DNA of 63,795 bases, filler included, from Vezdaea acicularis (GCA_026025075.1; 3 parts of 3 records of this genome joined end to end with filler, not necessarily neighbours in it); one strand, 5' to 3'. Shown: positions 29,659 to 38,667, counted from the first letter of the whole stretch. Numbers and translations are program-made. The notes: a model not told the origin generated them from the sequence alone.

Positions 29659-31979
29659 TCATCTTTTCTCTCGATCATGTCCGGGTGCATCGCGACGAGA
29701 CTCAGCGTAACCCGCCTCAATGTCGTCTTTCGATCTGCCGTCGCCTATCCTCTTCGGCTCGTCATCATCCTCGTAGTCATCATCTCTTCGGCGGTGCCTC
29801 TCATGTCGACTGGAATACCTCGAGTCTGTGTGGATTAGTACATCGTTTGTTAGTCGTAGGGTAAAGGGGTAAGCAGCTTACCCCTAATCTCCTTTGTCCG
29901 CTTAGCTAGTTGTTCGATCTCTTCCTTGGGAAGGACGCGTAGTACAATGACATGATCCAAACGCTCTTCGAATCTCTCGTGAGCTTCTGTCAAGGCATCT
30001 GGATTCACCAACTTCCGGCTGATCTTGGTCCATTTGGCATTTGCCGGAATCCCCTTCTTAGCCCCATCCTTGAGCGGCGCCACGCCCTCTCTCACAGGCT
30101 CAGGCTCTTCTGGGAATTTTTCACGCGGTGGTCGTAAGATGCCCTTAGGCTTCTTCTCCGCTTCTGCATCCTTTGAAGGAGGAGAGACGACACGGACTAC
30201 CGACTTTCGCCGTTCTTGCGCACCTGTGTCGTCCGCACGGTCTGCACGACCTCTACGGTGCTCTTCAGAGTCGGCGTCGCTGCGTGGTCGTTCTAGGTCA
30301 TCGCCTCGGGGCTTGTATCGGTTCGATTCGGGTTCGTATGGTTCCCGACCGCGCTCTGGCTCATCTCCCGTAGATCGACGGTGTTCATCACGAGCGGGGT
30401 CACTCCCCATGTTTCGCGGCCTTGGTCGATCGTGCTTTTCGAGCCTTTCTCGCTCCCTCGTAGACTCCAGAGTCTCGTCTGCCGTCTTATGGCGGTCGTT
30501 CCTTTCCGGCATACCCCTTTCAGGCTCGCGAGGACGGTCGGGTTCATCATCACGCGGTTTATAGCGCGAATCTTTGTCTGTACGTTCTCTATGTGCTTCC
30601 TTTTCCTCTTCGTCTCGCTTTCGTCGACGATCTTCATCTGCTGAACGTTCGCGATGTGGGTCCGCGCTCTTCTCCCTGATGGGCATGGCCATGGGTATTG
30701 GAAGGGTATTCCCGTGGCTTGCGATACCTCGCCTGCGATCAATGCTCTCATCTCGAGGTCGTTGTAGATCTCTGTCGTTATGATCATGGTCATGTTGGCG
30801 GTAGGGCCTCCCGTCTCGACCTCGATAAGGAGCACCCTCATCACCTCGGAATGCATATCGGTCCTCGCTTCCGGAGCGGCGGCGACGATCATCGTACTCA
30901 TCATCGCCATAGCGACGCCGATAGTCATCAGGATCCATATCTCTTCCTCGGCTACTCCTAGGCTTAGGCTTAGGCTCGGTAGGGAAAGGGTCACGGTCAA
31001 TAGGATACGGTGCTGGCTTCTGATGCAGGGCCGGTCGCCGAGAAGCCTCATCATAGTAGCCCTCATCTCTTGGATCTCGATAACTCTGACGATACTCATC
31101 TCGCATGACGGGCTTCTGAGACTGCCCTAAGCTGCCAGATCTTTGCATTGGCTCTGCCCAACCACGATAACTCACTGGCGGGCCTGCTTCTCTGCCATCT
31201 CGAGGGCCATACCTGCCATAATCTCCCAGGTTTAACGGTCTTTCGCCACGCTCAGCACTATGCCTCCTGTGCCTAGGACCTGGCTCCTTCCAAAAGTCGT
31301 GGGGTTCAGTATAAGTGTAGTCGTTAGGATCTACCTTGCCAGCAATATAAGCTCTAGGAGGAGGGTCTCGAACGCGATAGCCACGTTCTTCGTTATTCGT
31401 GGGATCTCGAACAAGAGGCCCACTTTGATGATATCCCTTGTATCCTGCTCTACTTCGGTCCGTGCTGGGGACGAGTCGCTCGCGATCATACTGATCAACG
31501 CTGGCGAGCCTGCGATGGTCTCTAGATCCTTTAGATGATGCTGGCTGTAGATAATAAGATTCGTCGTAGTCGAAGTTTGGGTTCTTAAGGCCAGGGCTGG
31601 TCGCGACGTTTGGTGCATATTCATTAGTGTTATGTATTACAGATTTTGGTCGAGTTGAAGGGGCGGCGTTTTGCGTGATCACAGGTCGTCTTCCTCCTGT
31701 GTCAAGAGTCGATCTTCGGGTGCCAAAATGATCTACTGGAGCTCGTAGTGTTGAAGGTGATTCGGTAACGTAGGCGTCCGAGAGAAGTCGTCTATCGTCG
31801 GAGATCCGTTCACCGCTCGCTCGTGGGGAGACATAGTCATCTGCCGACGGACGATATGTCGAGTAGTACTGTGAGCCATATGCTGGTATCGTGCCGGTAG
31901 ATGAACGCCCCGAAACCCCAGTAGCGATACGGCGGCTACCCGGTGAGACCGCTCGCCGGCGAGGTCGGAAATTGTCCAT
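29659..31979 (-). CDS. Conserved fungal hypothetical protein, R/D/E-rich disordered body with a conserved C-terminal domain; exons 31979-29882, 29825-29659
   Basis: Long ORF ending in KGILRPPREKFPEEPEPVREGVAPLKD...IP..AKWTKISRKLVNPDAL...ERFEER.D.VIVLRVL..EEI, a block recognisable from filamentous-fungal proteins. 56-nt GTAAGC...ACTAAT...CAG intron. Confidence 0.8.
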
Positions 31980-34344
31980 TGAGACCACGTTATATGGGAC
32001 TAATAGTGGTCATCAAAAGGTTTTGATCGACGTTCTTATCTGCTCGATAAACGTTTTGAAAGCAGTTGCGTCAAATTCTGCGCCAGCACACGAAGAGGGG
32101 TTGTGTGGTTGTAGCCGCTGCAAGAGACGTTAACGACAAGTGTGGCCCAAGCGGTGAGTCAATTTGAATGCAACGAACTTCACCAGGGCTAAAGCCTTAT
32201 TGAGACCCAAGCGTAGGTGTTCTCCTACTCGACCAGTGTCGCATTCAAAGCGTTCCCTGATATAGACAAGCCGGGAGGAAACTCTACTTCTTTGGGAACT
32301 TTAGGGGGAAAAGATCGATGCCTGATCGACAATGAGACGGATCAAGGCCCAAAATTGTCTGAGAGCCCAAGATCCACAACTCTGGATGAAGCTATTCCGC
32401 TTGACCGTTCACGTGAAGTAGTTTATCGTAGTTTATATGCCTCTCGAGCAGCAAAGTGGAAATGATAATCAGCACGAACGTGGCTCAAACGACGTCAGCA
32501 GATGACGATCAACAGCTGGCAGTCGATGATTGTAAGGACGTCTCCACACGATACTGACTCTTCGCATTAGCGAGTTTGGTCAAGTTGAGCAGACAAGCTA
32601 CTAGAGACAGTTGAAGACGGGGAGGCCCTTTAGGTGGGGGTATAGACTACCATAACTGAGGCTGATCTGCAAAATAGGTGTTTTGTGAAGCCATACAATA
32701 TACTTTGTTAGCCATATTAGCGAACAAAGAACAGCGTGACACCTCGAATTGTCGCCACCATGATTCTAAATTCTTGAGAATATGGAAGAAGCTTCGTAGA
32801 AGTTCTAAGAGTTGAGGCTAATTCAAGAAGCAAGTTGATTGGTTAGGGAGACTTGCTCATATCGGATCTGCAGAGGGCCGATATTTTCAAGGGAATGAAG
32901 ATCCCGTCAGCCCTACCCAGCGTTAGGGCAATAAGAACCTCAGTACCCTCGCAGATCCAACTAGAACACCTTGACACGTCAATGCTATTAGCGATTGCAT
33001 TGGAATACCTAGACCACTTCCCCGACAATGCATGACATTACTTAGGGAACTTATCCTAGTTCAATGGAGGGATTAACGCGCTGCCTCCACAGTCCTTGTT
33101 GCCTTTCATCTGCTGAACGGCTTAAGGCGATTGCTTAGTAACGCAAGGTGGTTCTCCTTTAGGAGCACTGACGCGCAATAGAGAATTCCAATTTGTTCAC
33201 ATGAGATGGAATCTTCGAGAGTGCTATCTGCTTTCGTTTTTGTCCCCCCACTCGACATATTCTCTCCCCGGAAAAAGCTAGAACATAGACACCATCTCGC
33301 GAAGCGCAAATTAGATATTAAAAACACGAGACACGGTACAAATATCATAAGCTATTAATTGGGAAAATTATTTTGGTGATGGATACATAAAGCTCTTATT
33401 TTTCTGTATGTTGACTTTGTTGATGGTTCAGCTGCAATGGATCATGGAGGCAGACCGAGATGGGTGCGCGAATCGACGCCGTGCATATGAAACCACAGCT
33501 AGAAGCCAATCGGCGCACACCACGATATAGTATATAGCGACATGCTGCAACATGATTCGATGAGAGAGTGGAGTCGACATGATCGGAGTCGGTGACTTGC
33601 ACGATGAAGTCTCGAACAATCTAGCATCATTGGATGGTCGCGCGCAGCGTTGATAGTCGGGCGACCGACGCCCATGAGAGAGAGGGTGTCGCATTGCATC
33701 GCAACGCTTTAATCTTCTTAGTTGTCTCTTGTATTCTTCGATTATAATTCCACCTATGAATACTCCAGAATATTCTCGAGAAGCACGAGTGAGGTCGAGA
33801 GAGCATCGCATGTGCGCTCCATGTGGAAAATGGGAATGGTATGAGCAGGGGTTGCTGTGGAGTCGTGCAAATTATCTTAACGAGCCAATCACAGATCGAC
33901 ATTCGGACGGATTAATGGGCCATTTCGCGTGCGTGCAGCAACAAACAACGAGGGTGCGCTGCCAACGCGAACCGGGATCACTGCCAGCCTCGCTCAGGAA
34001 GGGTTCCCTGCCCCCCTCAAATCGCTCAGCTTCTGCCTCCACACCCCAAACCGTCAACCTTTATCCTTCCTTCCATTCCTCGGTTCCAATTCACATCCCA
34101 AAATCGCATCAATCCATCAACCTAGTGCCTCTAGCCTAGTCATCTTAACTTCAACCTCAATCTTCTTCTTGAAAGTCGAGTGATAAGAGCTGTGTTGCTG
34201 CCACGTCGCGTCGTGTCACTTCACCTTTCTTTCCTCCCTTTCCTTACCCCCCTCAGAAGCAAGAGTCCTTCTTGTCTTCCTTTCGAATTGTTGTCATAAC
34301 GGTTCGAAAGGCATTCGAGAAAGGACCCCCCCAATCCAGTCAAT

Positions 34345-35102
34345 CTGGACTTTGACGCCCGAGTCCCGATCCCCTTCAGTGTCTTCCCGTCGTCGTACCG
34401 GAGCGACGCTGTCACGGAATCTACTCAAGTCAGAGTAGAAGGAGAAGTCAATCTTCCCCCTCGAGCTTCGCGCGTCGGACGGGAAGGTCACGAAGAAGAA
34501 ACCAAGTACACTTCTTTCTCCGCCAGCCTACCTCACCGTAAAGACCACGTCCACGTCGAAGAAGAAGCAGAAGTCACCTTTGAACGTGAAGGTCGTCGTC
34601 CTCGCCGCCGCGAAGAATACGCAGAGTTCGAGAAGAAGGAAAGCTTTGACGTAGAGATTGAACGCGACCGGTAAAGCTCACCCCCCCTTTTTTTTCCTCA
34701 GCCCAACACTGTATCTCGATGGGCATTGGCTCGGTGAAAAGCTCATCTGCCTCCCAACCAATGGGATCAGTTCACATGTTTTGTGTTGTCCAAACGCAAC
34801 AACCGCCTCGCTTGTTGTTGTGACAATAGCCTGCCTTTTCCCTCACACATTTACCATTGTACTAATGTGTGCTACGCTATAGTTACCGTGAGCCGTATCA
34901 GCGCTACGCTGAGACAAATATCGAAGTCGAATCTCCTCGACGCAACTACGAGACCGAACTTGACGTGACCGAACGTGAATACCGTCGTCGTACTCAACCA
35001 ATTGCTGTTGAAGAGTACGAAGACCGTTATACTCAATACCGACCAGCCAGATTCGAGACAGAAACCACAGTAGAAGCTCCTCGCCGTCATCACAAGGTCG
35101 AT
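34345..35102 (+). CDS. hex-1: N-terminal extension of HEX-1 (long isoform, putative CUG start); exons 34345-34670 and 34883 onward
   Basis: In-frame, ATG-free coding-like sequence (L)DFDARVPIPFSVFPSSYRSDAV...ERDR/YREPYQ..., joined by a 212-nt intron (GTAAAG...TACTAAT...TAG) in the correct phase to the HEX-1 frame. Confidence 0.65.
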
Positions 35103-35747
35103 ATGGGTTACTACGACGAAGACGGTCATTACCATTCCTTTCGTCACGGTCTCCATAAAGCCGCTGACCGTTTCCTTCATCCAGGCCACCACCATCACCA
35201 CCATTCCTCGGAGGAAATTGATATCGATATTGAGGAGCGTCGTCCTCGCCATGAGGAACGTTCAGAGCGAGTTGCAGTGAGGGAGCGTAACTGTGGGCCA
35301 CCAAACACGATTACTATTCCTTGCCACCACATCCGCATCGGTGATCTCTTGATCCTTCAAGGTCGTCCCTGCCAAGTCATCCGTATCACCACCTCTGCTC
35401 ACACTGGTCAACATCGTTATCTTGGAGTGGATCTCTTCACTAAGCAACTCCATGAAGAATCTAGCTTCGTCTCCAATCCGGCTCCTTCTGTCATTGTTCA
35501 GAACATGCTTGGGCCAGTCTTCAAGCAGTATCGTGTTCTTGATATTCGCAATGACGGCCGCGTGGTTGCCATGACTGAGACTGGCGATGTCAAGCAAGGT
35601 CTCCCAGTCATTGACCAAGGTGGCTTGTGGCACCGTCTCGAAAGGGCTTTTGCCAACGGCCGTGGAAGCGTCCGCGTTCTTGTCATCAATGACGAGGGAC
35701 GTGAGCTCGCGGTTGACTTCAAGGTCGTTCACGGATCTAGGCTCTAG
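35103..35747 (+). CDS. hex-1: Woronin body major protein HEX-1 (214 aa AUG-initiated form)
   Basis: MGYYDEDG start, TITIPCHHIRIGDLLILQGRPCQVIRI, HRYLGVDLFTKQLHEESS, eIF5A-like fold and C-terminal PTS1 -SRL. Confidence 0.97.
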   Translation: MGYYDEDGHYHSFRHGLHKAADRFLHPGHHHHHHSSEEIDIDIEERRPRHEERSERVAVRERNCGPPNTITIPCHHIRIGDLLILQGRPCQVIRITTSAHTGQHRYLGVDLFTKQLHEESSFVSNPAPSVIVQNMLGPVFKQYRVLDIRNDGRVVAMTETGDVKQGLPVIDQGGLWHRLERAFANGRGSVRVLVINDEGRELAVDFKVVHGSRL

Positions 35748-36730
35748 TTCAATCCTATCTAGTAAGACTTTGACCATGTTCCTTAGTGAGACTATTCTAA
35801 CATAAGATTGCAGCAAGCATCTGTGGTTTCATTTTATCTGCACCAATAGGCAACAGCATGTCGCCACATGCAAAATGAACCGACTTAATGCGGATCCTAA
35901 TGAGCTTCCAAACAAGGGCGTCTTCATACTTTCTGCATCTCTCTTCAGGCCTTCAGTCTAAGCTAGTCGCCTGCTTCGAAAAGCTTCTCATGTCGATACT
36001 TCAGGCTTCTCCCATTCAGCGATGGAACACCTGTGCCAGCATGTTTCAATGATGAATCTTAGTTATTCTCTTTTCGGCTGTGGGTAGCTTAAGAAGCTCG
36101 ATGGTCTCTCCAAACCTAACTGTTTGCGACCTCTGGCACACTTTTAGCATTGGGACTAGCGTTGGACATAGTTGGAATCGAGGGGGAAAACAGTGCAATG
36201 GAATCTTTAGGCTGTTGATAATAGGCAATAACTTATGAAGAAGTGAATCTGCTCCCTTGTAACCTTTGATCGCATGCTTTCCGCGTAAGGGACCATTATG
36301 GAGCTAACGTGAGATCATATATATTCGCGCTCCATTTCTGATCCGTAAACCACGGCAGACCTCGTAGGAACCACGCACTCCGCAAGGTACGCCTGACGAC
36401 CGAAGGCACGGAATTTAGCCAATCATGCTTTCAGGTTAGGGCATGGTGTTTTCCAAAGCCATCCGATGTCTCCTACATCATATTCATAGCATGAGGAGAC
36501 AGAAACGGCAACACGCCAGTCATAACCCCTAAATTGGACGGCCACATCAGGAATGACTGCCACTCAAAAGCTTACATTACATATACACGAGGCGAGCAAC
36601 TTCATGGATTGCGGTTGCGCCTCTCCATGAGCCATCAATGCACCAAGGCTTGCTTCATAGTTGGCATTTATAGGAATTTGATTGGAAGCCCTCCAGCTTT
36701 TCCTGTGGGTCTTTTCTAACCGATCATATC

Positions 36731-38667
36731 TTAATTACCCAAAGCAGACATCGTTGAAACCATGTTACCATCAACATCAATCCTATTCAACAGATCATAC
36801 CCAAACCGAAGCTCTTTTTGCAACAGATCCATGAAGTCTTTTCGCATCTTCAAAGCCCGGAGCTCATGCCATGCTGTCTCGACCACTAGATCGCGCAAGG
36901 CCCTAGCATCCCCCTCAACGTCACCAGCATAGATATCAGCAACGCAGAGTGCAAAATCTGCACTATTCCAAGCTACCTTGAGGCGGTCCTTAAATTTTGC
37001 TATGGCGAGCTTCTCTAGTACAGGCATGTCGTAGCGGCATGCAAGAAGATACATGCGCGCATTGAGAAGGAGAGAGGGGTGGGGAGCAGGGGTGATTGCT
37101 GCAGTAGGAGGCTTCTCGATCGCTGGAAGGGGCTCCTTGTAGGGCTCTGCTGCTGGGGCGTCGTAGGTCTCGGGCACGGCCGATGGAGGTGACAGGGTTG
37201 GTGAATGGAGCACCTCTGATGCAAGAATTGGTTCTATGCCTAACTTCGCTGCTACCGATTTGTTCTTTTTGGGTTTTTTCTTGCTTTTCGATGACTTTAT
37301 CTTTTTAAGCACTGGGGCTTTGTCTGACATGCAGCCAAATTCGGGAATAGATTCTTGTTCTGCAGGCTCGTCCATATAGTCTAGTTGCACAGGTTCTACT
37401 TCCTCTGGGGCTGGTTCCACAGCCATAGTTTTCGTATGTACCGGTTGCTTAGGCTCGTCAATAGGTGCAGGTACTGCAAGCTCGTCGAGGGCCGCCCTTG
37501 CTCTCTCCCCATTGTCCATCTTAGATGCTAGGGCTGGCGTAGGTGTACAGTCGTCGTCTGGTAGAGGGGTTGCTTCCATGAACCCATATGGCGCGTTCAG
37601 CGGATCGCTTTTGACCACTGCTGGCTCGACATCGGGATAGATTTCAACATAACTTGAGATTCCCTTCTTCTTTTTCTTCTTCTTTTCTTTGGATGTCGCG
37701 ATGAGGTCCCAAGTGGAGAGATCTTCTGGAGGCCCGGGAACGTCATCAATGATGTCTTTGGTTTCGTCAGCCTTCTCCATGACTGGGAGGTCATACTCTG
37801 GCATGCGTCCAATGGATTCTATTGATTTTTGATTTTTCTTCGATAAATATGGGGCCCAGACTTTCCATGGGTCTCTTTCCGGTTCGTCTTCAGCACTACA
37901 TTCAGCGGCTGATTTGACAGTCTCATTAGGATCTACAATTGTTGTGTCATCAAACATTGGTGGCTCCTTGGCTAGTAGGGCGGTTGAATCGTCCCCAGCA
38001 GAACATTTTAGGCTAGGTTCCACATCAGGGCAAGTCTCTTCACTGACTTGCTCGTCATACGGTTTGGCCTCAAATTGCTTTTCGTCCGCTGAATCCGCTG
38101 TACATGGTGGTGCTTGAAGCTCATCGTACGCATAAGCAGGACTTTCGGGTTGAAATCTAGGTCCCCACCCCGTCATCACGCCGCCAGAGGAGCTTGGACT
38201 ACGGTGAGTAGAAGGAGCGGTCATTCTGTCCACTATTTCCACCTCCTCCAACTTGTTCTTTTCTGCATTTTCCTGGGTAACCTCAATCTCCCCAACGAGA
38301 TCAGCCTTCCAGGACTCCTGTCCTTCGTGCCATATACCGTCGTAGTTCGAATTGTAGATATAATGAAGCAATCGCTTGACTAACACAAGTTCTTCATCAT
38401 CAAGGTTTAGCTGCCCACAATTCTGCCGTTGTCCATTATCTGTATCAGTTATTCTGGCTGCTAATCGCCTGGACCGGAGATGAATCATGAGCTTGTGTTT
38501 TAAGAAGATTTCCCTGCCGCACTTAACCACCAGGTCGATAAATTCGGGCGAATCATTAGCGCTTGCATTGGTATCAGCCTCTGAATAGAAATATCAGTGG
38601 ACACATTAACATACTCAGTAATACCACATTGGAGTTGCTCCCAGCCAGCGTCGACGATTGAATCCAT
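36731..38667 (-). CDS. BTB/POZ-domain protein with a large internal low-complexity insertion; exons 38667-38615, 38561-36731
   Basis: N-half: FIDLVVKCG...HKLMIHLRS...LNLDDEELVLVKRLLHYIYNSNY. C-half: LLLNARMYLLACRYDMPVLEKLAIAKF...DRL...LRDLVV...F.DLL....FGYDLL. Confidence 0.75.

What the first reader, a model, noticed from the sequence alone, without database searches (positions are those of the whole stretch)
34297..35747. HEX-1 has a hidden 182-aa N-terminal extension that appears to start at a CUG codon
Seen in sequence: upstream of the canonical MGYYDEDG ATG (35103) the frame stays open through an exon (to 34670), a 212-nt phase-2 intron (34671-34882) and 73 more codons. An in-frame TAA at 34297-34299 closes it, and there is no ATG in any frame from 33918 to 35102 outside the intron (about 970 nt of spliced leader). 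A CTG at 34345 sits in ideal context (AAT-CTG-G: A at -3, G at +4) just before DFDARVPIPFSVFPSSYRSD, a block I recall from long annotated Aspergillus HexA models. The extension is E/R-rich with strongly coding-like codon usage. Inference: leaky CUG initiation yields a minor 396-aa, PTS1-bearing HEX-1 isoform alongside the 214-aa form. It could modulate Woronin-body crystal growth, shape or tethering.
Basis: partly seen in the sequence, partly recalled or inferred. Interest (0 to 1): 0.85.

Follow-up and report, generated by a model that had tools for sequence, protein, structure and literature searches.

The report
CUG-started long form of HEX-1
The gene for the main Woronin-body protein also encodes a conserved, longer form that appears to start at a CUG codon just after a conserved RNA hairpin, a form that Woronin-body research seems to have overlooked.

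Summary
The frame is open from TAA 34297-99, through a GT..AG phase-2 intron (34671-34882), to the MGYYDEDG ATG (35103). The 973 nt of spliced leader hold no ATG.

- In 80 of 80 related loci plus the window, the Leu of (N)LDFDARVPIPF is CTG.
- In 42 of 42 non-identical sequences, G-6, C-4, A-3 and G+4 are invariant.
- Five other invariant Leu positions in the same genes each use 3-5 codons.
- In-frame stops lie as close as 4 codons upstream. No locus has an in-frame ATG between that stop and the CTG.
- 23 spliced cDNA-like contigs carry ATG-free leaders that match the genome without gaps. They have no ATG in any frame before MGYYD.
- The extension frame has 0 stops in 20 of 20 sequences, and dN/dS is 0.19-0.42.

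The conserved "FERHSRKD" stretch upstream of the CTG is not protein. It is a roughly 60-nt RNA hairpin of about -30 kcal/mol that is read in all three frames in different species. It fits the published orphan "hexA motif".

Best reading: leaky CUG initiation gives a 396-aa form with a disordered N-terminal arm and a PTS1, alongside the 214-aa form. This is a new member of a known kind.

The parts
34068..34082 (+). Conserved pyrimidine-rich motif (ccttccattcctcgg), a likely core-promoter or TSS-proximal element. From it I predict a TSS near 34095-34100 (inference).
   Evidence: The exact 8-mer TCCATTCC lies 205-273 nt before the CTG in 8 of 23 unique loci that have at least 330 nt upstream, the window included. 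The cDNA-like contigs L008, L010, L015 and L025 begin 245-256 nt before the CTG of genomic L011, which is 25-35 nt after this motif.
34265..34326 (+). Conserved RNA hairpin in the mRNA leader. It has an outer stem, an internal loop, an inner stem (CCUUUCGA / UCGAAAGG) and an apical loop. It probably equals the 'hexA motif' of Li & Breaker 2017.
   Evidence: MFE is -30.4 kcal/mol with z = -5.6. RNAalifold predicts the same two stems on 42 sequences. 95.2% of 684 cells are paired, against 40-64% when the partners are slid. Pairs 34-91 (UA 13, CG 12, UG 9) and 49-77 (UA 31, CG 6, UG 4) covary. Its 3' arm is read in three different frames in annotated proteins.
34297..34299 (+). In-frame TAA that closes the extension frame upstream. 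It lies in the apical part of the hairpin.
   Evidence: stop 16 codons before the CTG.
34327..34344 (+). Spacer between hairpin and start. Its last six bases (34339-34344, GTCAAT) form the conserved initiation context.
   Evidence: G-6, C-4 and A-3 are present in 42 of 42, A-2 in 40 of 42 and Y-1 in 42 of 42, while -5 is free. Measured from the consensus hairpin, the spacer is 19-29 nt and occurs in all three phases (26, 12 and 4 sequences).
34345..34347 (+). Proposed CUG start codon of the long isoform.
   Evidence: CTG in 80 of 80 loci plus the window. It is CTG in 20 of 20 non-redundant ORFs, while five other invariant Leu columns each use 3-5 codons. In 7 of 42 sequences there is no other in-frame near-cognate codon after the upstream stop.
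34345..34670 (+). Exon-1 coding part of the extension. It holds the highly conserved N-terminal block LDFDARVPIPFSVFPSSYRSD..VEGEVNLP..SRVGREGHE.
   Evidence: Synonymous codon variation is present at invariant residues.
34671..34882 (+). Phase-2 GT..AG intron of 212 nt. It holds the only four ATGs between 33918 and 35102.
   Evidence: In a relative, an intron at the same position is removed in cDNA-like contigs (L013 against L012, 175 nt). The junction peptide ..RDR|YREPYQRY aligns with the junctions in the cDNA-like contigs.
34883..35102 (+). Exon-2 part of the extension (1 nt plus 73 codons). It includes the conserved block LDVTEREYRRR.
35103..35747 (+). Canonical 214-aa HEX-1 ORF (MGYYDEDG..., His-rich stretch, eIF5A-like two-domain core, stop at 35745-35747).
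   Evidence: Pfam PF21485 and PF01287 match. The PDB Woronin body major protein 8qlw matches at E = 1e-100 and Hex1 1khi at 4.5e-80.
35736..35744 (+). C-terminal SRL tripeptide, described as the PTS1 peroxisomal targeting signal. Both isoforms carry it.
   Evidence: GSRL or GSRM ends all 26 full ORFs. SRL is described as the PTS1 in PMC7762394 (passages).

Best explanation
One hex-1 mRNA makes two proteins. Transcription probably starts about 250 nt before the CTG. The leader has no AUG and carries a stable conserved hairpin (34265-34326). Scanning 40S subunits pass the hairpin. A fraction of them initiate at the CUG at 34345, which sits in an invariant strong context (G-6, C-4, A-3, G+4). By established knowledge of near-cognate initiation, Met-tRNAi would be used there. 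Those ribosomes make a 396-aa protein. Its parts are a very conserved N-terminal peptide of about 50 aa, an R/E-rich arm predicted to be disordered, the normal HEX-1 core, and the SRL PTS1. The other ribosomes scan on through the spliced extension, which is kept free of AUG in all three frames. They start at the AUG at 35103 and make the abundant 214-aa crystal-forming HEX-1. What is shown: the anatomy; conservation of the CUG, its context, the ORF and the AUG-free stretch; spliced mRNAs in relatives that match the genome without gaps; and the RNA hairpin. What is inferred: that the CUG is actually used, how the two forms are balanced, and what the long form does. My guess is that the hairpin tunes or supports CUG recognition. 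Its 3' end lies a roughly fixed 15-19 nt before the CUG. That would be just outside the 40S exit channel when the CUG is in the P site. I also guess that the long form is imported through its PTS1, co-assembles through its HEX domain, and leaves its arm on the crystal surface. There it could limit growth or link the core to other factors.
For: The Leu codon is CTG in 80 of 80 loci plus the window. No locus has an in-frame ATG between the upstream stop and the CTG. The stop lies 4-55 codons upstream.

The context is invariant in 42 of 42 unique sequences, while position -5 is free. That is the opposite of a codon pattern.

Codon control: the first Leu is CTG in 20 of 20 ORFs. Five other invariant Leu columns each use 3-5 codons. 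CTG makes up 16.9% of all Leu codons.

In 7 of 42 sequences there is no other in-frame near-cognate codon upstream. In most of the rest the only ones are AAG or AGG, many of them within the hairpin's 3' arm.

26 of 26 full ORFs have their first Met at MGYYD and 0 ATG in any frame over 627-1089 nt. My sum of the per-sequence expectations is about 76. The 23 cDNA-like contigs have 102-426-nt leaders with 0 ATG.

An intron is removed and the leader matches the genome without gaps (L013, L008 and others against L011/L012; L063 against L062). The 5' ends of four contigs cluster within 12 nt.

The extension frame has 0 stops in 20 of 20 sequences (182-363 codons). The other frames have 2-8 and 4-23 stops. 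dN/dS of the extension outside the N-block is 0.19-0.42 in 9 closer pairs. Codons vary at invariant residues of the N-block.

Hairpin. Spacer phases are 26, 12 and 4. The hairpin's 3' arm is translated in three frames in annotated models: about 65, 4 and 5 of 120.

Named hits cover Lecanoro-, Eurotio-, Dothideo-, Leotio-, Geoglosso- and Xylonomycetes.
Against: There is no direct evidence of translation, since no ribosome footprints or peptides were available. There is also no RNA or genome data for this organism.

The relatives are unnamed metagenome contigs and are phylogenetically related. The counts are therefore not independent events.

Synonymous variation in the N-block is lower than in the HEX domain (relative codon entropy 0.37 against 0.64, p = 4e-5). 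N-block dS is lower in 7 of the 9 closer pairs and higher in 1 (L008/L015: 0.325 against 0.157). Part of that conservation is therefore at RNA level.

AlphaFold2 finds no fold in the extension (pLDDT below 50 for most of residues 1-214), so no structural function can be seen.

No downstream hairpin of the kind known to boost non-AUG starts is supported. A hairpin upstream of a start has, to my recollection, no established enhancing role.

The assembled contigs cannot exclude minor transcripts with other 5' exons or an internal promoter for the short form.
Confidence: 0.8

Rival explanations
1. The extension is translated, but from an ordinary AUG in an upstream exon or alternative transcript that splices into the region just before the CTG. 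This follows the regulated-splicing idea of Li & Breaker for the hexA motif.
For: Li & Breaker noted that the right shoulder of the hairpin resembles a 3' splice site (passages). In the window a ccAG lies 6 nt before the CTG. In one clade the near-upstream stop is a TAG or AAG that could serve as an acceptor. Many gene models place ATG exons upstream.
Against: The annotated N-termini share nothing with each other upstream of the hairpin. No AG is conserved between hairpin and CTG; L007 and L018 have none. The 23 cDNA-like contigs keep the hairpin and leader unspliced and hold no ATG. Stops 4-5 codons before the CTG block any reading from within or before the hairpin. In genomic loci the nearest upstream ATG lies 135-499 nt away, in no fixed frame.
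Confidence: 0.04
2. The region from the CTG to the AUG is only a long 5' UTR. Its conservation is at RNA level (structure, localisation or stability signals) and the open frame is a by-product.
For: Synonymous sites near the CTG are unusually constrained. The hairpin shows that RNA-level selection acts on this leader. The extension has low complexity and is predicted to be disordered. A published view treats HEX-1 N-terminal extensions as annotation artefacts (PMC7762394, passages).
Against: The frame has 0 stops in 20 of 20 sequences over 182-363 codons, while the other two frames have 2-23 stops. Many indels and repeat expansions all keep the frame. dN/dS is 0.19-0.42. Residues are kept while their codons change. 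An untranslated leader would not need an invariant CUG in an invariant strong context.
Confidence: 0.06
3. The extension is translated, but not by simple scanning to this CUG. Initiation could be hairpin-directed internal entry, or could use another near-cognate codon. The short form could come from a separate, shorter transcript rather than from leaky scanning.
For: The hairpin lies at a nearly fixed distance from the CUG. AAG or AGG codons occur in frame upstream in most sequences. Transcript ends for a short mRNA could not be examined.
Against: AAG and AGG are, by recollection, the weakest near-cognate codons. Here they lie in varying phases, many of them inside the stem. 7 of 42 sequences have none. 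The next downstream near-cognate codon (ATC of VPIPF) is not conserved. The complete lack of ATG in all frames between CUG and AUG in 26 of 26 sequences is what leaky scanning from the cap predicts. A separate short mRNA would not require it.
Confidence: 0.07

Closest known systems
Near-cognate-initiated N-terminal extensions of Pezizomycotina CPC1 (cpc-1) (Ivanov et al. 2017, mBio, PMC5487733; passages read)
   Same: Same fungal subphylum. A conserved in-frame extension of about 180 aa lies upstream of the annotated AUG. Near-cognate codons (a CUG among them) are conserved with A-3 and G+4. The comparative logic is the same.
   Different: cpc-1 has AUG uORFs, several near-cognate codons of partial conservation (CUG in 73 of 100 species), and in vitro and footprint support. 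HEX-1 has a single CUG (81 of 81 here), a leader with no AUG at all, an adjacent conserved hairpin, and no experimental support yet. hex-1 is not mentioned in that paper's main text.
hexA RNA motif (Li & Breaker 2017, BMC Genomics, PMC5640933; passages and supplement table read)
   Same: A long hairpin with small internal loops lies in 5' UTRs or 'introns' of hexA genes. It is followed by a tail whose least conserved bases fall at every third position. The species list covers Eurotio-, Leotio- and Dothideomycetes, as does the extension.
   Different: The authors proposed control of alternative splicing and did not name a start codon. Here the hairpin sits unspliced in mature cDNA-like contigs and the 'tail' begins at an invariant CUG. 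Their figure and alignment were not available, and Rfam 15 holds no model that hits the region. Identity with their motif is therefore inferred from the description.
Known HEX-1 isoforms made by alternative splicing of the intron just after MGYYDD (V. dahliae 188 and 209 aa, and others; PMC7762394, passages)
   Same: Same gene, two protein forms that differ at the N-terminus, both with the PTS1.
   Different: Those forms differ by about 20 aa downstream of the AUG. The form described here adds 182-363 aa upstream of it, through a different mechanism and a different intron.
Conserved non-AUG N-terminal extensions in animals (PTEN leader study PMC4892431, search listing and abstract only; Ivanov 2011 NAR, seen only as a reference)
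   Same: One mRNA gives a longer proteoform from an upstream near-cognate codon in good context. Such cases are detected by coding-type conservation upstream of the AUG.
   Different: Different proteins and lineages. A conserved hairpin upstream of the start is, to my recollection, not part of those cases.
Structure-assisted non-AUG initiation (START; PMC11165317, search listing and abstract only)
   Same: An RNA structure near a non-AUG start is proposed to influence its use.
   Different: As I recall it, the enhancing structure there lies downstream of the start. Here the conserved structure lies upstream, and no downstream helix is supported.

Membership tests
HEX-1 / HexA, Woronin body major protein | eIF5A-like two-domain core | tested here: met
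   PF21485 (30.2 bits against a cut-off of 27.1) and PF01287 (27.2 against 24.2) match. PDB 8qlw matches at E = 1e-100 and 1khi at 4.5e-80.
HEX-1 / HexA, Woronin body major protein | C-terminal PTS1 tripeptide (SRL) | tested here: met
   The ORF ends ..GSRL* at 35736-35747.
HEX-1 / HexA, Woronin body major protein | Conserved N-terminal hexapeptide MGYYD(D/E) at the canonical start | tested here: met
   MGYYDEDG begins at 35103. The paper calls MGYYDD highly conserved (PMC7762394).
HEX-1 / HexA, Woronin body major protein | Self-assembly into a crystal lattice inside a peroxisome-derived organelle | not testable with these tools
   Needs expression and microscopy or crystallography.
[quoted passage not shown] | Frame open upstream of the annotated AUG, with no in-frame AUG back to the first stop | tested here: met
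   Met in the window, in 80 of 80 loci and in 26 of 26 full ORFs.
[quoted passage not shown] | Protein-type (not only nucleotide-type) conservation of the extension | tested here: met
   The frame has 0 stops in 20 of 20 sequences, against 2-23 in the other frames. dN/dS is 0.19-0.42. Codons vary at invariant residues. Caveat: synonymous sites near the start are extra constrained.
[quoted passage not shown] | A conserved near-cognate codon in a strong context at the 5' edge of the conservation | tested here: met
   CTG in 81 of 81. A-3 and G+4 in 42 of 42. The Leu-codon control varies.
[quoted passage not shown] | Direct evidence of initiation (footprints, peptides, mutagenesis) | not testable with these tools
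   No RNA runs were listed. No Ribo-seq or proteomics tool was available.
hexA RNA motif (Li & Breaker 2017) | Long hairpin interrupted by small internal loops or bulges | tested here: met
   In 7 of 7 folded examples there is an outer stem, an internal loop and an inner stem, at -26.8 to -32.2 kcal/mol.
hexA RNA motif (Li & Breaker 2017) | Location in the 5' UTR or 'intron' of hexA genes, followed by a tail with every-third-base variability | tested here: met
   The hairpin lies 18 nt before the CTG. The tail is the N-block coding sequence.
hexA RNA motif (Li & Breaker 2017) | Match to the authors' own alignment or covariance model | not testable with these tools
   The figure is not held. 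The supplement table gives only the description and species list. Rfam 15 gave no hit at E <= 1 apart from an unrelated chance match.

The most novel reading that the evidence does not exclude
The hairpin and the CUG form one conserved translational module of a kind not described before. A stable helix refolds just behind the scanning 40S, 15-19 nt upstream of the P site, and acts as a backstop or a regulated switch. It would set how many ribosomes start at the CUG rather than at the AUG about 550-1100 nt downstream. This ratio of long, disordered-armed HexA to short, crystal-forming HexA would control Woronin-body core size, shape or tethering. It would do so in the classes that have the module (Eurotio-, Dothideo-, Leotio-, Lecanoromycetes and others). 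Sordariomycetes such as Neurospora, which appear to lack both the motif and the extension, would build their cores without it.
Probability: 0.2. Interest if true: 0.85.

Novelty: new member of a known kind. Interest (0 to 1): 0.72.

Why it matters
HEX-1/HexA is the defining protein of the Woronin body. All the solved structures that matched here are short-form-sized chains of 176-218 residues. If the long form exists, most classes of filamentous ascomycetes make a second HexA species. It would have a 180-360-aa disordered arm and an almost invariant 50-aa N-terminal peptide, and nobody has looked for its partners or its phenotype. That makes several open questions testable: how core size and shape are set, how the core is linked to the membrane and septum, and why lineages differ.

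The reading also gives a concrete role to an orphan conserved RNA motif (hexA). It explains why gene predictors give this gene more than 100 mutually inconsistent N-termini. It adds a very clean natural example for the study of start-codon choice in fungi: a single invariant CUG, no AUG anywhere upstream, and an adjacent structure.

Tried and rejected
- RNA evidence for this organism: none was listed by the look-up of sequencing runs.
- Whole genome: none is held for this window.
- Earlier scan notes: nothing was found.
- Rfam: there was no family hit in 33500-36000 apart from a chance-level Rothia-sucC match at E = 0.99.
- Downstream hairpin that might boost the CUG: RNAalifold gave only -3.69 kcal/mol with no compensatory pair, so I rejected it.
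- Coding reading of RFERHSRKD.. (34300-34344): rejected, because the same nucleotides are read in three frames in other species and the spacer changes phase.
- DNA-level palindrome or transcription-factor site instead of an RNA hairpin: judged unlikely, because G-U pairs are tolerated on the sense strand only (for example pair 39-86 is UG in 31 sequences and UA in 10).
- Met residues inside the extension in annotated models: three were flagged (P0006, P0101, P0104). Two have MGYF or MGYH starts that my pattern missed, and one carries a retained intron. None is a real counter-example.
- L030-L032 first counted as intron-less. They are genomic contigs in which the intron happens to be open in frame, so only 23 contigs are cDNA-like.
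- Pfam on the extension gave no family.
- AlphaFold2 on a 423-aa relative with 18 aligned sequences gave no confident fold in the extension, and no fold search was run.
- Beck & Ebel 2013 is not held.
- A locus tag that I recalled for A. fumigatus hexA found nothing.
- My hairpin-to-CUG distance heuristic failed on 5 of 42 sequences. It gave 3-7 nt for 10 and 29 or 37 nt for 2.
Full report
**The observation.**
- The canonical HEX-1 ORF runs from 35103 to 35747 and codes for 214 aa (MGYYDEDG ... GSRL*).
- It matches Pfam PF21485 and PF01287.
- It also matches solved Woronin-body proteins: 8qlw at E = 1e-100 and 1khi at 4.5e-80.
- Upstream, the same frame stays open through 73 codons of exon 2, a 212-nt GT..AG phase-2 intron (34671-34882) and exon 1, back to a TAA at 34297-99.
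- The 973 spliced nt from 33918 to 35102 hold no ATG in any frame. The expectation is 5.5 by a first-order model (P(0) = 0.004) or 11.6 by base composition.
- The CTG at 34345 has A at -3 and G at +4. From the CTG to the AUG is 182 codons.

**The extension is real and widespread.**
- The exon-1 translation matched 244 longer proteins at E <= 0.001, of which 120 were listed. All are HexA/HEX-1 models, mostly of 410-580 aa.
- Their source names include Lecanoromycetes, Eurotiomycetes, Dothideomycetes, Leotiomycetes, Geoglossomycetes and Xylonomycetes. No Sordariomycete was among the 120 listed.
- In 119 of these 120 models the block LDF(D/E)ARVPIPFSVFPSSYRSD is almost invariant.
- What the models place before it has no common sequence. 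Many records are flagged 'partial' and begin right after a stop. Gene predictors evidently could not find a start.

**DNA of relatives.**
- One scan of metagenome contigs used an alignment of the block. It gave 235 confirmed stretches, of which the best 80 loci were kept.
- In 80 of 80 loci, as in the window, the Leu codon is CTG. No in-frame ATG lies between it and the nearest upstream in-frame stop. That stop is 4-55 codons away, and only 4-5 codons away in about 20 loci.
- I reduced the set to 42 sequences that differ by more than 3%.
- In these, the context is G-6, C-4, A-3, G+4 and A+5 in 42 of 42, A-2 in 40 of 42 and Y-1 in 42 of 42. Position -5 takes all four bases.
- Invariant first and third bases with a free second base is the reverse of a coding pattern. 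It fits an initiation context. The 'N' that annotators read before the Leu (109 of 119 models) is simply that context.
- As an internal control I took 20 ORFs that share less than 95% protein identity. The first Leu is CTG in 20 of 20.
- Five other invariant Leu columns in the same genes use 3-5 codons each, with CTG in 1-8 of 20. CTG is 16.9% of all Leu codons.
- In 7 of 42 sequences no other in-frame near-cognate codon exists after the stop. In most others the only ones are AAG or AGG.

**Transcripts.**
- 26 contigs carry an uninterrupted ORF from the CTG to GSRL or GSRM (415-581 aa).
- Three of them (L030-L032) turned out to be genomic, with an intron that is open in frame.
- The other 23 are short contigs of 1.6-2.5 kb.
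- For one species group the comparison with genomic loci is direct. L013 bases 1-458 match L012 2905-3362, and bases 455-2400 match L012 3538-5535. A 175-nt intron at the position of the window's intron is therefore removed.
- In that group the leader matches the genome without gaps (L008, L009, L010, L013, L014, L015 and L025 against L011/L012). The same holds for L063 against L062 and for L038 against L072/L078.
- These contigs are therefore spliced cDNA-like sequences.
- Their leaders (102-426 nt) contain no ATG in any frame.
- In all 26 contigs the first Met of the ORF is the MGYYD one. No ATG in any frame lies in the 627-1089 nt between the CTG and that AUG. The per-sequence expectations of 1.3-6.0 add up to about 76 by my own sum, although the sequences are related to each other.
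- The 5' ends of four contigs fall within 12 nt of each other, 245-256 nt before the CTG. That is 25-35 nt after a conserved TTCCATTCCTC-like motif. The window has this motif at 34068-34082.
- In genomic loci the nearest upstream ATG is 135-499 nt away, median 386.
- This contradicts the refuting scenario of an upstream ATG exon, at least for the dominant assembled transcripts of relatives.

**Coding signature.**
- The extension frame has 0 stops in 20 of 20 sequences (182-363 codons). The other two frames have 2-8 and 4-23 stops.
- The extension has no Met or Trp. There is one Cys in one sequence (L030), and it lies in that contig's in-frame intron.
- Its composition is rich in R and E, with much V, T, S, P and Q.
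- Many indels and lineage-specific tandem repeats all keep the frame.
- dN/dS outside the N-terminal block is 0.19-0.42 in nine closer pairs. The HEX domain gives 0.01-0.22 in the same pairs.
- At invariant residues of the N-block the codons do vary; Ala, Arg and Pro each use four codons. They vary less than in the HEX domain, with relative codon entropy 0.37 against 0.64 (Mann-Whitney p = 4e-5).
- Some RNA-level constraint therefore overlaps the first 20 or so codons. I looked for a downstream helix that could explain it and found none with support.

**The element upstream of the CTG is RNA.**
- The stretch that reads FERHSRKD in the window recurs in other species as ..AFEK.. or ..KGIRE... 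The same nucleotides are thus read in the other two frames (about 65, 4 and 5 of 120 models).
- Measured from the consensus hairpin, the spacer to the CTG is 19-29 nt, most often 22. It occurs in all three phases (26, 12 and 4 of 42 sequences).
- RNAalifold on the 42 sequences predicts two stacked stems.
- For a 17-pair model, 95.2% of 684 cells pair, against 40-64% when the partners are slid. None of 500 shuffles reached the observed values.
- Pairs 34-91 (UA 13, CG 12, UG 9) and 49-77 (UA 31, CG 6, UG 4) covary.
- Seven single sequences from different groups all fold into the same shape: outer stem, internal loop, inner stem. Their energies are -26.8 to -32.2 kcal/mol with z from -3.1 to -6.9. 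The window gives -30.4 kcal/mol at 34265-34326.
- The apical loop varies from 4 to 20 nt.
- By a per-sequence MFE heuristic, the base of the helix ends 15-19 nt before the CUG in 25 of 42 sequences. It ends closer (3-7 nt) in 10 and farther (29 or 37 nt) in 2, and 5 were not scored.
- The window's in-frame TAA lies in the apical part of this hairpin.

**Link to the literature.**
- Li & Breaker (2017, PMC5640933; passages and supplement table) described a 'hexA motif'. It is a long hairpin with two small internal loops in 5' UTRs or 'introns' of hexA genes, followed by a tail whose least conserved bases fall at every third position. They suggested control of alternative splicing.
- Their species list holds Eurotio-, Leotio- and Dothideomycetes. 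It holds none of the Sordariomycetes that appear in the list of another motif in the same table.
- The description and the distribution fit the element found here. I could not compare alignments.
- Here the hairpin sits unspliced in the cDNA-like contigs and the 'tail' starts at the invariant CUG.
- The V. dahliae Hex1 paper (PMC7762394, passages) attributes the N-terminal extensions seen in databases to annotation inaccuracy. It knows only the two forms made by alternative splicing after MGYYDD.
- Ivanov et al. 2017 (PMC5487733, passages) documents the same kind of near-cognate extension for cpc-1 in this subphylum. Its main text does not mention hex-1.
- All ten allowed full-text searches found no paper that links HEX-1/HexA to a CUG start, to leaky scanning or to a conserved long isoform.
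- Subscription papers are not in that library. Beck & Ebel 2013, for example, is not held. bioRxiv supplements were closed.

**Mechanism.**
- The best-supported reading is leaky scanning on a single mRNA.
- Some 40S subunits start at the CUG and make the 396-aa form. The rest scan through an extension that is kept free of AUG in every frame and start at 35103.
- The AUG-free stretch is the strongest argument that the short form is reached by scanning from the cap rather than only from a separate short transcript.
- AlphaFold2 was run on a 423-aa relative with 18 aligned sequences. It gives pLDDT below 50 for most of residues 1-214 and a folded HEX core.
- The long form is therefore a HEX-1 core with a disordered arm tipped by a very conserved peptide of about 50 aa.
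- Both the role of the hairpin (tuning or backstopping CUG recognition) and the role of the long form (capping or decorating the crystal, or linking it to partners) are inference.

**Limits.**
- No RNA, ribosome or peptide data exist here for this organism.
- The relatives are unnamed contigs and are related to each other, so the counts overstate the number of independent events.
- Absence of the module in Sordariomycetes rests on indirect evidence only.

**Verdict.** [quoted passage not shown] It comes with an adjacent conserved RNA hairpin whose function is open.

Noticed in passing
window 34068-34082; L011/L012, L062, L072/L078 about -285 to -230 from the CTG: A conserved TTCCATTCCTC-like motif lies 25-35 nt upstream of the clustered 5' ends of the cDNA-like contigs. 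The exact 8-mer occurs at -205 to -273 in 8 of 23 unique loci with enough upstream DNA. It may be a core-promoter element of hex-1.
   Followed up: partly
extension region of related loci (L035, L045, L008, L052, L057 and others): Tandem peptide repeats that differ between lineages lie inside the extension. Examples are units of about 20 aa ending ..TTVDPPRFQPSY..QQDVEFVQTSRTAPQ.. units and ..YRADSYDLREVDVDAS.. units. They make the extension 182-363 aa long.
   Followed up: no
window 34345-34410 and the same stretch of 42 relatives: Synonymous sites in the first 20 or so codons after the CUG are unusually constrained. For example, CGG is used for Arg in 19-20 of 20 sequences and TCG TCG for Ser-Ser. 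No supported helix explains this.
   Followed up: partly
window 34239-34275 and upstream flank of the hairpin in relatives: A purine run upstream (AGAAGCAAGAG or CCAAGAAG) can pair with the CUUCUUG that forms the 5' arm of the hairpin's outer stem. In one clade a separate AAGACUU/AAGUCUU helix sits there instead. This may be an alternative or additional structure.
   Followed up: no
window 34671-34673: If the intron is retained, the CUG frame ends at once at a TAA formed by the 5' splice site (cgG|TAA). That would give a 109-aa product that carries only the N-terminal block (counted from the CTG at 34345). The four intronic ATGs would also intercept ribosomes heading for the main AUG.
   Followed up: no
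window 29850-32009 (- strand) and 36731-38593 (- strand): Long open frames flank hex-1 on the minus strand. The upstream neighbour (719 aa) is very rich in R, D, E and P and of low complexity. Neither was examined.
   Followed up: no
proteins P0031-P0033, P0062, P0118: Some database models of 1093-1992 aa fuse the HexA extension to an unrelated upstream gene. This is probably another effect of the missing AUG on gene prediction.
   Followed up: no
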